Part shown: positions 1 through 22,485 of the stretch, one piece after another | How the letters are laid out: the number at the start of each line of letters is the position of its first letter | How positions within the stretch are numbered: the first letter of the stretch is position 1 | DNA from: a virus | Taxonomy: Duplodnaviria > Caudoviricetes | Virus record (IMG/VR): IMGVR_UViG_3300032007_000017 | Direction: 5' to 3' (one strand) | DNA: 64,000 bases | Notes under the pieces: model-generated | What the model was told of the DNA's origin: nothing | Database searches by the model: none | The model's input: the letters and a program-made list of their open reading frames with translations, nothing else | Position numbers and translations under genes: made by a program

Positions 1-64
1 GCCTTAACCCCCACCCCTACATATCTCACTAATCGATTCGGTTTCTTATATAATTTCCTCATTT

Positions 65-19860: not shown

Positions 19861-19876
19861 GAGATGTGTTGAAATA

Positions 19877-20974
19877 TTAATCTTGTATTTCCCAATAATA
19901 GTATTGGATTATGCATACGCCATCTCCACCATTTGATGTAATTTGATTATTACCATCAGTAAAATCACCACCATTAGCAAATAATCCATATCCACCACCA
20001 CCTCTTCCATTTGCTGGAGTATAGTATCCTCCGCCACCTCCACCATTATCTCCTCCTTTAGCAGATTTTCCATATCCGCCACCGCCTCCACTTGCACCAC
20101 TACCATAAAGAGTATATACCATATAAGAAGAAGCAGCTGCTGTTGAATTTCCACCATTACTTCCATAACCTCCACCTCCTCCAAATGCTATATTATAAAA
20201 TGATGTATTATATCCACCACTCCATCTATCTCCATTAAGTCCTACTCCTCCATATGCAATTCCTTGTTCTGATTCTTCTACATCATTAAAACCGATAGTA
20301 TTTGTTCCTTCATATCCATTTAAATGAGATGAATCTCCTCCATTACCACCATATATTCCTCCAATTCCACTCCCTCCAGTAGCTTTTATTCTTTTCCACC
20401 ATTTACTTTCCCAACAATCTAAATATATTCCTCCGCCACCTCCTCCCCATGGGCCACCATTTCCGCCTCGCCCATTGATATCTATTGTTTTACCGTCAGT
20501 TCCGCAAGTTCCAGAACACGTGAGTCCTCCCCCTCCAAATTGATAACCAATTCCTGCAGTTCCATAATTATTACTATCTGGGCTTCTTGTTAAATAACCA
20601 CCACCGCCACTTCCACCATTTCCGCCACTTCCACCAACTCTAATATCCCATGCTCCTCCTCTACCATTAGCACTTAAATAATCGCCAAATGCTGTTGTAC
20701 CTCCAGCTGTATATGTTCCCCCTCCAGTTCCAATTGTTATATTTATTGTCTCATTTTTATTAATAATTATAGAATCATTATTCATCCATCCTCCTCCACC
20801 TCCTGCCCAGAGACTACCACCTCCTCCGCCACCAAAAATTCTAACATGAAATTCATTATTTATTGCTTTAGGAGTAATGTATTCTTGGCTTTTTGTAATA
20901 ATATCAGTGCGAAGTACTTTAATTGCATTTAATCCACCAGAACCACCACGTCTGCTAATAATTCCTTCACTCAT
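19877..20974 (-). CDS. Glycine-rich adhesin-like protein B
   Basis: MSEGIISRRGG...VRIFGGGGGG...GGTTAFGDYLSANG...GDGVCIIQYY; polyglycine repeats with variable loops. Confidence 0.75.
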   Translation of the reverse strand: MSEGIISRRGGSGGLNAIKVLRTDIITKSQEYITPKAINNEFHVRIFGGGGGGSLWAGGGGGWMNNDSIIINKNETINITIGTGGGTYTAGGTTAFGDYLSANGRGGAWDIRVGGSGGNGGSGGGGYLTRSPDSNNYGTAGIGYQFGGGGLTCSGTCGTDGKTIDINGRGGNGGPWGGGGGGIYLDCWESKWWKRIKATGGSGIGGIYGGNGGDSSHLNGYEGTNTIGFNDVEESEQGIAYGGVGLNGDRWSGGYNTSFYNIAFGGGGGYGSNGGNSTAAASSYMVYTLYGSGASGGGGGYGKSAKGGDNGGGGGGYYTPANGRGGGGYGLFANGGDFTDGNNQITSNGGDGVCIIQYYYWEIQD

Positions 20975-20977
20975 AAA

Positions 20978-21007
20978 AGAGTACTCTCCTTTCTAGGAGA
21001 GTACTCT
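20978..21007 (-). promoter_or_regulatory. 13-bp hairpin sequestering the SD of gene B
   Basis: mRNA AGAGUACUCUCCU-AGAA-AGGAGAGUACUCU-UUU-AUG. Confidence 0.85.
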
Positions 21008-21044
21008 ATAACAGCACCCTCCTCGAAGATATAGTAGTTATTAA

Positions 21045-21122
21045 CTACCCTTCCGGGGGGGGGGCAAACTGAATCAAACTAGTTCTATTGTGGATGTGAA
21101 CCAGCATATGAAGATGAATCAT
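21045..21122 (-). CDS. Leader peptide containing a C10 tract (MIHLHMLVHIHNRTSLIQFAPPPEG)
   Basis: SD-like AAAGGGG; one extra C extends it to 50 aa ending in an ATGA overlap with gene B. Confidence 0.65.
   Translation of the reverse strand: MIHLHMLVHIHNRTSLIQFAPPPEG
21055..21064. repeat. G10/C10 homopolymer (candidate phase-variation tract)
   Basis: Ten consecutive G in AT-rich DNA. Confidence 0.9.
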
Positions 21123-21146
21123 AGTTATAAGCCCCTTTATTAAGGT

Positions 21147-22223
21147 TTAAGCATAATACTGAACTATGCAAACACCAGAACCGCCTGTTCCGCCGCCTCC
21201 TGAATTACTAGAATTTCCTTCTCCACTACCCCCTCCTCCGCCAAGTATTCCATTATACCCCCATCCATTTTGAACAGCATCTCCTCCATTACCATATCCT
21301 CCTCCTCCCCCTCCACCTAATGTATTGCCATTTCCACCTTTACTAAAATAGCCTCCACCACCAGCACCACCTCCCTGAATTCCCCATTTTCCCCATCCTC
21401 CATTTGCATTTTTTCCATATCCTCCCCCACCTCCACCATAATTACCACCACTACCTCCGTATCCACCACCTCCACCACCATAAAAAACATAACCATATCC
21501 AGTATATGAATTAATTCCTTTTCCTCCATTACCGCCAAACCCTCCTCCACCACCATATTCCCCTCCAATTGCAGGACCTTTAAAATTATCTGATATATTG
21601 GTCCATAACATTGTATTTGTTCCATTGCTTCCATTTACTCCATCTGATCCTCCTCTTCCGCCATAAATACCATTGCTTCCCCATGGAGATCCACCTCCTC
21701 CATAGGTTCCTCCACTGCCGCCTTGACGAGTTCCTCCTCCACCACCACCCCACATACCTCCATTACCCCCATTATAAGCACCACCTCCAGCACCTCCACC
21801 AAATTGATATCCTATACCACCATTTCCTTGACCTCCACCTCCACCTGAACCGCCACTACCTCCATTTGCTGTAACGGAAGAGCCTGTTCCGCCATTAGCA
21901 CTTAAATAAGTACCGAAAGATGTAGTTCCACCAGTTCTTGAAGGTATTTGAGCATTGCCTCTGGCTCCGCTTCCTCCTTCTCCAATAATAACAGAAATTT
22001 CCGTTCCATTATCGATATCAAAATCTCCATTATTCATCCATCCTCCTCCTCCACCTCCTCCACGTTGAGCACCGCCTCCACCACCTCCAAATATTCTTAC
22101 ACTTACATTTCCTTTATGGTTAGGTATAGTAAATGCACCAGTCCCTAAAAATAATGTAACTAAATTTCCTCCACCACCTCCAGATCCTGAACCACCTCTC
22201 CTACTAATTACCGCCTCACTCAT
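21147..22223 (-). CDS. Glycine-rich adhesin-like protein A (start MSEAVISRRGG)
   Basis: Paralogue of gene B with the same N-terminus and C-terminal GSGVCIVQYY. Confidence 0.75.
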   Translation of the reverse strand: MSEAVISRRGGSGSGGGGGNLVTLFLGTGAFTIPNHKGNVSVRIFGGGGGGAQRGGGGGGGWMNNGDFDIDNGTEISVIIGEGGSGARGNAQIPSRTGGTTSFGTYLSANGGTGSSVTANGGSGGSGGGGGQGNGGIGYQFGGGAGGGAYNGGNGGMWGGGGGGTRQGGSGGTYGGGGSPWGSNGIYGGRGGSDGVNGSNGTNTMLWTNISDNFKGPAIGGEYGGGGGFGGNGGKGINSYTGYGYVFYGGGGGGYGGSGGNYGGGGGGYGKNANGGWGKWGIQGGGAGGGGYFSKGGNGNTLGGGGGGGYGNGGDAVQNGWGYNGILGGGGGSGEGNSSNSGGGGTGGSGVCIVQYYA

Positions 22224-22361
22224 ATATTTCAACACTCCTTTTATCGAGGAGGGTGTTGACAATTTTATAAAGAGAAGGATCAATATCCTTCTCTCAGAAA
22301 TGAAATAGTGATAGCCCTCGCTATCACTTCTTAATGTTTTTAACAAGGCCCATCACCTCGC

Positions 22362-22393
22362 AAAAAAAATAATGGTATGCACACGCATACCAT
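22362..22393 (-). terminator. Attenuator-like terminator inside the cassette leader
   Basis: AUGGUAUGC-GUGU-GCAUACCAU-UA-U8. Confidence 0.75.
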
Positions 22394-22473
22394 CGATTAA
22401 ATGAATCATTACCACGTCATCCAAAAATGCTATGATACCCCGATTCCCTCCCCCCATTTATTACTACACTCAC

Positions 22474-22485
22474 GGGGGGGGGGGG
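22474..22485. repeat. G12/C12 homopolymer (candidate phase-variation tract)
   Basis: Twelve consecutive G. Confidence 0.9.

What the first reader, a model, noticed from the sequence alone, without database searches (positions are those of the whole stretch)
21012..22258. Long-range complement that could make adhesins A and B mutually exclusive
Seen: CACCCTCCTCGA (21015-21026) is a perfect inverted repeat of 22244-22255 (14/15 when extended). In the mRNA the upstream copy is the anti-SD arm of gene A's RBS hairpin (UCAACACCCUCCU...AGGAGUGUUGA). The downstream copy lies after the C10 stop but inside the C11 read-through frame. Inference: at C10 the free downstream copy captures the anti-SD (A on, B off); at C11 ribosomes strip it (A off, B on). 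This would be an RNA-level toggle. DNA inversion at these repeats is the alternative, but no recombinase is visible.
Basis: inference. Interest (0 to 1): 0.85.

Follow-up and report, generated by a model that had tools for sequence, protein, structure and literature searches.

The report
Conserved long-range RNA complement between phage genes
In a jumbo phage, a short sequence that masks the ribosome site of one tail-fibre-like gene exactly matches a conserved "G-box" in the leader of the next gene; related phages keep and co-vary this match, so it may link the two genes' expression, but that link is untested.

Summary
21015-21026 is the exact reverse complement of 22244-22255, and 14 of 15 bases match when extended.

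Both genes lie on the minus strand of a ~270 kb jumbo phage with a split RNA polymerase. They encode glycine-rich, tail-fibre-like paralogues.

A bare 12-nt inverted repeat is common here: 42 in the window against ~21 expected. This one is not chance. The downstream arm is a "G-box" (GAGGAGGGTG), found in 45 of 47 related leaders that carry a poly-C tract. It sits ~24 nt after the tract and before an SD-masking hairpin.

The G-box has two local partners: its own poly-C tract (flanks co-vary, p=0.002) and its own anti-SD arm.

In all 14 A-then-B gene pairs from related phages, it also complements the upstream gene's anti-SD "C-motif" over 12-15 bp.
- Cognate pairs beat non-cognate ones (p~0.001).
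- One helix position co-varies (T-A x9, A-T x5).
- The helix dominates naked-RNA ensembles in 4 of 6 pairs.

So the complement looks selected. The mutually exclusive A/B toggle remains inference. DNA inversion is unlikely.

The scan has not noted this on other DNA.

The parts
22474..22485 (-). C12 tract in gene A's long leader
   Evidence: One of only two G/C homopolymers of 8 or more in the 64 kb. An identical C12 is present in an independent contig, L003.
22438..22455 (-). Gene A's own degenerate G-rich box, ~19 nt after C12
   Evidence: Read. Its duplex with A's C-motif is -17.6 kcal/mol, weaker than the -25.8 with gene B's G-box.
22371..22394 (-). Terminator-like hairpin plus U8 inside A's leader (a second hairpin lies at 22307-22328)
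   Evidence: Pattern scan. Hairpins in the same position occur in A-type leaders of relatives.
22244..22258 (-). C-motif, the anti-SD 5' arm of gene A's RBS hairpin (upstream arm of the finding)
   Evidence: CAACACCCTCCTC is nearly invariant in A-type leaders of relatives.
22229..22239 (-). SD-containing 3' arm of gene A's hairpin
   Evidence: Hairpin -10.9 kcal/mol with a 2-nt bulge.
21147..22223 (-). Gene A, a 358-aa glycine-rich tail-fibre-like protein
   Evidence: ORF. Weak Pfam Gly_rich_2 match, E 2.4e-4, below cut-off. 462 homologues, many on 235-274 kb contigs.
21045..21122 (-). Leader ORF of gene B as read at C10 (ATG 21122 to TAG 21047-21045)
   Evidence: The ORF and its frame logic are conserved in 16 non-redundant B-type leaders.
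21055..21064 (-). C10 tract inside the leader ORF
   Evidence: It is C9 in an otherwise near-identical JGI contig, L002. Tract length differs in 13 of 21 contexts seen in 2 or more contigs.
21034..21048 (-). Small hairpin between tract and G-box (GTAGTT/AACTAC)
   Evidence: MFE fold. Equivalent hairpins with other sequences occur in relatives.
21012..21026 (-). G-box of gene B's leader (downstream arm of the finding)
   Evidence: GAGGAGGGTG is invariant in 14 aligned B-type leaders. It is present in 45 of 47 leaders with a tract. It pairs with the tract in 10 of 10 local MFE folds.
20978..21007 (-). Perfect 13-bp hairpin masking gene B's SD
   Evidence: about -23 kcal/mol. The arms co-vary across relatives.
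19877..20974 (-). Gene B, a 365-aa glycine-rich paralogue (~40% identical to A)

Best explanation
The two 12-mers are two parts of a conserved RNA leader system. This system controls arrays of glycine-rich, tail-fibre-like genes in a group of jumbo phages.

Each gene carries, in order:
- a hypervariable poly-C tract;
- a G-box (GAGGAGGGTG) ~24 nt later;
- a hairpin in which a C-rich anti-SD arm masks the SD.

The G-box acts as a hub with three possible partners: its own poly-C tract, its own anti-SD arm, and, in phages with A-then-B gene pairs, the anti-SD C-motif of the upstream gene ~1.2 kb away.

I judge it most likely a selected long-range RNA helix. It would tie gene A's ribosome-site masking to whether ribosomes read through gene B's poly-C leader ORF.

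Shown: the complementarity, its conservation, its cognate-specific co-variation, and the frame logic.
Inferred: that the helix forms in vivo, and the sign of its effect (G-box free gives A unmasked; G-box translated gives A masked and B coupled on).
For: - The helix is 12-15 bp in 14 of 14 A-to-B pairs from 10 contigs of related ~235-274 kb phages (two of which are the window's own phage), at -24 to -29 kcal/mol. That beats the G-box's own anti-SD arm (7-13 bp, -13 to -22) and A's own SD arm (about -13).
- Cognate pairs beat non-cognate ones. Permutation p is 0.0007 (helix length) and 0.0012 (dG). With one pair per contig (n=9), p is ~0.001.
- Helix positions 0-9 are paired in 14 of 14. Position 11 is paired in 14 of 14 with two pair types, T-A x9 and A-T x5. 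Flank variants match each other: AACAC/GTGTT, CTACAC/GTGTAG, TAATATG/TGTATTA.
- In some A-type variants (L015, L043, L004 g3, L060) the C-motif sits in the hairpin loop. It is therefore not needed to mask its own SD, yet it is conserved.
- In full-length naked-RNA ensembles the helix is the dominant partner of the C-motif in 4 of 6 pairs: W 10-12 bp, L008 12.7, L015 10.4, L019 12.5.
- The G-box lies inside the ON frame in all 16 B-type leaders and beyond both OFF-frame stops in 15 of them.
- No terminator-like site lies between A and B.
Against: - The G-box is universal. It also occurs in monocistronic relatives with terminators between genes, where its partners must be local.
- Flanks of the poly-C tract and the G-box co-vary (p=0.002), and local folds pair them in 10 of 10 cases. 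The G-box's conservation therefore needs no upstream gene.
- The helix core never varies. The co-variation rests on the flanks of 9-14 related pairs.
- Within-genome swaps are ambiguous: in L019 the swapped pairing is better, in L008 and L004 it is equal, and only in L015 is the cognate pairing better.
- Both L004 pairs pair the C-motif with Gly-codon-rich coding sequence instead.
- L001 keeps the C-motif without any downstream G-box.
Confidence: 0.45

Rival explanations
1. By-product. The G-box and the anti-SD arms are SD-like and anti-SD-like consensus elements with purely local jobs. The G-box would close a stem with its own poly-C tract, act as an anti-sequestor for its own anti-SD arm, or serve as a 16S-binding standby site. 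Any G-box then complements any anti-SD arm, and the A-B match has no function of its own.
For: - 45 of 47 leaders with a tract have a G-box at a fixed ~24 nt, including monocistronic units.
- The tract pairs with the G-box in 10 of 10 local MFE folds and in the RNAalifold consensus, with flank co-variation at p=0.002.
- The G-box pairs with its own anti-SD arm at a median of 10 bp and -16.8 kcal/mol. In L027 and L048 this pairing is the local MFE.
- Non-cognate A/B combinations still give ~11-12 bp and about -24 kcal/mol.
- L001 has the C-motif but no B gene.
Against: - It does not explain the cognate-specific flank matches (p~0.001) or the T-A/A-T co-variation at position 11.
- It does not explain why A-type anti-SD arms match the G-box perfectly yet match their own SD only with a bulge.
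- It does not explain why the C-motif is kept in hairpin loops where it masks nothing.
Confidence: 0.35
2. DNA inverton. The 12-15 bp inverted repeats are recombination sites, and the 1.2 kb segment carrying gene A and B's poly-C leader flips.
For: - The arms are inverted repeats flanking a discrete segment.
- Cognate-specific identity of the arms would also follow from homogenisation at the DNA level.
- Some invertons are known to use repeats this short (own knowledge: fimS has 9 bp).
Against: - Every A gene is co-oriented with its B gene in all 14 pairs and in repeated assemblies of the same phages.
- Contigs break at poly-C tracts, not at the repeats.
- The antisense of gene A has no ORF above 87 aa.
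- No recombinase family was found in 30 window proteins scanned.
- An inverted state would only silence A.
Confidence: 0.04
3. Chance match in a GGAGG-rich, glycine-codon region.
For: - 12-nt inverted repeats within 3 kb are common: 42 observed against ~21 expected in 64 kb.
- The coding region holds 8-9 nt partial complements at 21547 and 21238.
Against: - The expected count for this arm is 3e-3.
- The match recurs in 14 of 14 pairs in diverged phages.
Confidence: 0.01

Closest known systems
Long-range RNA interactions that couple cistrons in RNA coliphages (MS2 Min Jou interaction; Qbeta long-distance helices). From own knowledge, not checked in a paper here.
   Same: The ribosome site of one cistron is governed by pairing with a distant sequence. 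The accessibility of that sequence depends on ribosomes translating another reading frame on the same RNA.
   Different: In this case the genome is DNA (a jumbo phage). The distant partner lies in an untranslated or conditionally translated leader, and a slippery poly-C tract sets its translation. Pairing would unmask the site rather than mask it. Nothing has been tested experimentally.
Hypermutable homopolymer tracts (contingency loci) in phages: polyG tracts in Campylobacter Fletchervirus receptor-binding genes (Sorensen et al. 2021, Cell Rep 35:109214, seen in the reference list of PMC10877375), and T2/T4 contingency loci (bioRxiv 10.1101/2025.10.21.683753).
   Same: Long G/C homopolymers sit at tail-fibre or receptor-binding-type genes. 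Tract length differs between otherwise identical genomes (13 of 21 contexts).
   Different: The tracts here lie in 5' leaders or short leader ORFs, not inside the structural genes. They are embedded in a conserved RNA structure (tract:G-box stem plus an SD-masking hairpin). One relative uses a (TC)n repeat in the same place.
Leader-peptide translational attenuation (ermC, cat) with alternative hairpins. From own knowledge.
   Same: A short upstream ORF is present. Mutually exclusive pairings among three or four segments decide whether the SD of the downstream gene is exposed.
   Different: No antibiotic-stalling peptide is evident. The switch variable is the reading frame set by a slippery repeat. 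One candidate pairing partner lies 1.2 kb upstream in another gene's leader.
Invertible tail-fibre segments (Mu G/Gin, P1 C/Cin) and fimS-type invertons. From own knowledge.
   Same: Inverted repeats flank a segment linked to host-range-type genes.
   Different: The repeats are only 12-15 bp. No invertase was found, there are no opposed alternative coding exons, and no flipped copy appears in any assembly.

Membership tests
Long-range RNA-RNA translational switch (MS2 Min Jou type) | Complementarity conserved in relatives | tested here: met
   12-15 bp in 14 of 14 A-to-B pairs.
Long-range RNA-RNA translational switch (MS2 Min Jou type) | Compensatory co-variation in the helix | tested here: inconclusive
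   The 10-bp core is invariant. Position 11 shows T-A x9 / A-T x5 with 14 of 14 paired. The cognate advantage has p~0.001. However, n is small, the pairs are related, and within-genome swaps are ambiguous.
Long-range RNA-RNA translational switch (MS2 Min Jou type) | Both arms on one transcript | tested here: inconclusive
   No terminator-like site lies between A and B, and one follows B.
Long-range RNA-RNA translational switch (MS2 Min Jou type) | The helix forms and changes expression | not testable with these tools
   Only thermodynamic ensembles are available: the helix is dominant in 4 of 6 pairs.
Site-specific invertible segment (Gin/Hin/Cin or fimS type) | Recombinase gene at or near the element | tested here: not met
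   No recombinase family in 30 window proteins, including all neighbours. The rest of the 270 kb genome was not available.
Site-specific invertible segment (Gin/Hin/Cin or fimS type) | Both orientations present in populations | tested here: not met
   All assemblies of this phage and its relatives show the same orientation. Raw reads could not be checked.
Site-specific invertible segment (Gin/Hin/Cin or fimS type) | A functional product in the flipped state (alternative exons or a promoter) | tested here: not met
   No antisense ORF above 87 aa lies within gene A.
Contingency locus (slipped-strand phase variation) | Long simple repeat whose length varies between otherwise identical genomes | tested here: met
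   C10 against C9 at 21055-21064. 13 of 21 tract contexts vary. Homopolymer assembly error cannot be fully excluded.
Contingency locus (slipped-strand phase variation) | Repeat length changes the expression of a gene | tested here: inconclusive
   The frame logic is conserved in 16 non-redundant B-type leaders, and both ON and OFF lengths are observed. No expression data exist.

The most novel reading that the evidence does not exclude
The long-range helix brings gene A's ribosome site next to the end of cistron A and the early stops of B's leader ORF, acting as a railway switch. In the OFF frames, ribosomes stop just before the G-box; the helix stays closed, A's SD stays unmasked, and ribosomes may even be handed back to A. 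In the ON frame, ribosomes melt the helix, A is re-masked, and they couple into B. A one-base slip in a poly-C tract would then swap which of two tail-fibre-like proteins a phage genome makes. The module is repeated several times per genome across a whole group of jumbo phages.
Probability: 0.2. Interest if true: 0.9.

Novelty: new variant of a known kind. Interest (0 to 1): 0.7.

Why it matters
If the helix works as proposed, these jumbo phages would combine two things known separately. One is hypermutable repeats at host-range-type genes. The other is long-range RNA control of ribosome sites. Together they would form a heritable, reversible selector between adjacent tail-fibre-like genes.

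Even without the long-range part, the leader is a conserved, unannotated RNA element with no Rfam match. It consists of the poly-C tract, the G-box, the SD-masking hairpin and, in compact leaders, a frame-dependent leader ORF. It was found in dozens of metagenomic phage contigs.

The system gives a testable case of phase variation acting through RNA structure and translational coupling rather than by breaking the reading frame of the structural gene.

Tried and rejected
- blastn of the locus against 50,697 phage records found no match.
- No whole genome is held for this window.
- Four IMG/VR scans found nothing: peptide patterns, the A hairpin, the gapped hairpin and the 19-nt motif. A fifth, with the C-terminal coding pattern, gave two loci that lack the leader architecture.
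- A protein-alignment scan of metagenome contigs matched 600 stretches, but none passed tblastn, probably because of low complexity. The degenerate C-terminal DNA pattern then gave 48 loci.
- DNA of the 270 kb parent contig could not be fetched because the file is too large.
Inversion junctions, tract-length spectra in reads and RNA evidence therefore could not be checked, and read laying was not used.
- The Rfam search found nothing credible.
- MAFFT alignments did not put the hairpin arms or stem flanks in register. Pair statistics were therefore computed by anchoring on the invariant cores in scripts.
- My first idea was that the downstream arm is an orphan copy of gene A's own 3' arm left by duplication. 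I dropped it once the G-box proved universal.
- Chance and DNA inversion were considered and judged unlikely (see the rival explanations).

Full report
**Where we are.** Both genes of the finding lie on the minus strand.
- Gene A is 22223..21147 (358 aa). Gene B is 20974..19877 (365 aa). They are glycine-rich paralogues, ~40% identical.
- Gene A has only a weak Pfam Gly_rich_2 match, below cut-off. A third, shorter paralogue at 5468-6124 matches PHROG tail-fibre families. "Tail-fibre-like" is therefore fair, but "adhesin" is not shown.
- Nearby genes include a split Rpb1-like RNA polymerase subunit, an NrdG-like radical-SAM protein and a WDGH protein.
- The identical gene A protein is encoded on a 270,305-bp metagenomic contig and on a JGI contig. 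The window therefore comes from a jumbo phage.
- No whole genome is held, and no catalogued phage is similar at the DNA level.

**The observation.**
- 21015-21026 is the exact reverse complement of 22244-22255, and 14 of 15 bases match when extended.
- On the mRNA, the upstream copy is the 5' arm of a bulged hairpin over gene A's SD (7 + 4 bp with a CC bulge, -10.9 kcal/mol).
- Gene B's SD is buried in a perfect 13-bp hairpin of about -23 kcal/mol.
- The only two G/C homopolymers of 8 or more in the 64 kb are C12 (22485-22474) upstream of A and C10 (21064-21055) between A and B.
- The leader ORF from ATG 21122 stops at TAG 21047-21045 at C10. With one more C it runs through the downstream copy and the hairpin to a TGA overlapping gene B's ATG.

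**Is it chance?**
- A 12-nt inverted repeat by itself proves nothing. The window holds 42 distinct perfect repeats of 12 nt or more spaced 50-3000 nt apart, against ~21.5 in composition-matched resamples.
- For this arm, the expected number of 12-nt complements in the local Gly-codon-rich sense strand is 3e-3.
- The decisive argument is comparative.

**Relatives.**
- Homologues of gene A are numerous and often sit on 235-274 kb contigs.
- I fetched arrays from several of these contigs.
- A degenerate pattern for the conserved C-terminus gave 48 further metagenomic loci.
- In total, 77 gene starts were placed with an N-terminal profile, giving 58 non-redundant leaders.

**A universal leader.**
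- 47 of the 58 leaders contain a poly-C tract of 8-19 C in the part read.
- 45 of those 47 have a G-box (consensus GAGGAGGGTG) a median of 24 nt downstream. An anti-SD:SD hairpin follows, just before the ATG.
- This also holds for distant relatives in which each gene is a separate unit with a terminator after the previous gene.
It is invariant in 14 aligned compact leaders.

**The tracts are hypervariable.**
- The window has C10 where the near-identical JGI contig has C9.
- Among 21 tract contexts seen in two or more contigs with identical 25-nt flanks, 13 differ in length.
- Several contigs end exactly at a tract.

**Local partners of the G-box.** There are two.
- *Its own poly-C tract.* All 10 local MFE folds pair the tract with the G-box. 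RNAalifold finds the same consensus in 20-22 of 22 sequences. The bases just outside the tract and the G-box are complementary in cognate leaders, with different sequences in different lineages (for example TAAGTCAT/ATGACTTA). The permutation p is 0.002 over 33 leaders.
- *Its own anti-SD arm.* The median helix is 10 bp, usually with one G-U, at -16.8 kcal/mol. In L027 and L048 this is the local MFE. In the window it is an 11-bp helix of -16.7 kcal/mol.

The G-box therefore needs no upstream gene to explain why it exists.

**The compact leaders and the frame logic.**
- In the phages closest to the window, genes come in pairs. An A-type gene has a long leader: tract, G-rich box, terminator-like hairpins, mini-ORFs, then a weak bulged SD hairpin. 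A B-type gene follows, with a 127-172 nt leader.
- In all 16 non-redundant B-type leaders, an ATG-initiated ORF enters the tract.
- Exactly one downstream frame stays open to within -4..+13 nt of the gene's ATG. At least one of the other two frames stops before the G-box in every leader, and both do in 15 of the 16; in L019 g4 one of them stops at -19, inside the hairpin.
- The ON length is mostly 11. Both ON and OFF lengths occur in the assemblies.
- One relative (L062) has a (TC)n repeat instead of poly-C, inside a leader ORF with a strong SD that again ends at an ATGA overlap.
- This independently supports the sibling note on a slippage-controlled coupling switch.

**The long-range helix itself.**
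- In all 14 A-to-B pairs, the A-type C-motif and the next gene's G-box form 12-15 contiguous pairs at -24 to -29 kcal/mol. This is stronger than A's pairing with its own SD (about -13), with its own upstream G-rich box (-18 to -20), or than the G-box's pairing with its own anti-SD arm.
- Because both cores are nearly invariant, non-cognate combinations also pair (~11-12 bp).
- Cognate pairs are still better. The permutation p is 0.0007 for helix length and 0.0012 for energy, and ~0.001 with one pair per contig.
- Anchored on the cores, positions 0-9 are paired in 14 of 14.
- Position 11 is paired in 14 of 14 with two pair types (T-A x9, A-T x5).
- The flanks come in matched versions: AACAC/GTGTT, CTACAC/GTGTAG, TAATATG/TGTATTA, CGAA/TTCG and TGAA/TTCA.
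- In several A-type variants the C-motif sits in the loop of the SD hairpin, so it masks nothing locally, yet it is conserved.
- In partition-function folds of the naked bicistronic RNA, the helix is the dominant partner of the C-motif in the window (10-12 of 14 bp), L008, L015 and L019. In the two L004 pairs the C-motif instead pairs with G-rich coding sequence.

**Against a dedicated A/B toggle.**
- The G-box is ancestral and has local partners.
- Within-genome swaps give no consistent cognate advantage.
- One A-type gene (L001) keeps the C-motif although a terminator and divergent genes follow, and there is no G-box within 7.6 kb.
- Nothing shows that the RNA folds this way in infected cells or which way expression would move.
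- The sample is small and phylogenetically related.

**DNA inversion.**
- No flipped arrangement is seen in any pair or in repeated assemblies.
- Contigs break at tracts, not at the repeats.
- The antisense of gene A is not coding.
- No recombinase family appears among 30 window proteins scanned.

**Verdict.**
- The best reading (about 45%) is a selected long-range RNA helix. It makes gene B's G-box a hub between B's slippery leader and A's ribosome site.
- The main rival (about 35%) is that the match is a by-product of shared SD-like and anti-SD-like elements with purely local roles.
- The mutually exclusive logic is plausible and consistent with the conserved placement of stops. It remains inference.
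- No Rfam family matches.
- The closest published phage precedents are hypermutable tracts inside receptor-binding or other genes, not leader-RNA switches.
- The scan has no note of this element on other DNA.

Noticed in passing
L062:9051-9221: In one related phage the B-type leader carries a (TC)n dinucleotide repeat instead of poly-C. The repeat sits inside a leader ORF with a strong SD (AAGGAGG). That ORF reads through the G-box and hairpin and ends at an ATGA overlap with the gene. A different slippery repeat is thus used with the same logic.
   Followed up: partly
window 21108-21128 (minus strand) and L048, L004:7265-7285, L015, L060, L064: A ~13-21 nt element (GAAGATGAATCAT / ATGATTCATCTTC) lies between the upstream gene's stop and the tract. 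It occurs in either orientation in different leaders, even within one phage. Its core ATGAWTCAT is near-palindromic, so it supplies the leader ORF's ATG either way.
   Followed up: partly
window 21082-21100 (+): A 19-nt motif (GTTCTATTGTGGATGTGAA) is identical to a stretch in the A-type leaders of L001 and L019, where it lies in the sense orientation. In the window it is antisense, inside a ~30-nt insertion in B's leader relative to the paralogous leaders in L019. It looks like a recombination scar.
   Followed up: partly
window 19866-19877 vs 22224-22235: This is a second perfect 12-nt inverted repeat. The bases just after gene B's stop (AUAUUUCAACAC on the mRNA) complement gene A's SD arm and spacer. 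It may be a relic of the start of a further A-type leader, since arrays in relatives continue with another A-type unit.
   Followed up: no
L019 (contig Ga0256407_10000893), same phage as the window: The same genome carries a second array of at least five Gly-rich genes in A-B-A-B-A order. Its tracts run from C11 to C17, and its leaders are the same. Gene callers extend the A-type ORFs upstream through the hairpin (for example 473 aa called against 399 aa real).
   Followed up: partly
window 22371-22394 and 22307-22328 (minus strand); A-type leaders in L004, L008, L015, L026, L043: A-type leaders hold a terminator-like hairpin with a U-run right after the tract/G-box module. In relatives they also hold a conserved mini-ORF with a perfect SD (AAGGAGGTG) ~90-130 nt before the gene. 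This suggests an attenuation layer on gene A.
   Followed up: no
L001:1, L002:1, L012:1, L023:1, L042:1, L055 end: Many metagenomic contigs end exactly at a poly-C/poly-G tract. That fits length heterogeneity or poor read-through at these sites, so assemblies may under-report the arrays.
   Followed up: no
L026:1373-1458, L001:40-80, window 22438-22455: Several G-rich boxes have four or more runs of GGG on the sense strand, close to a long C-run. G-quadruplex or i-motif formation at the RNA or DNA level was not examined.
   Followed up: no
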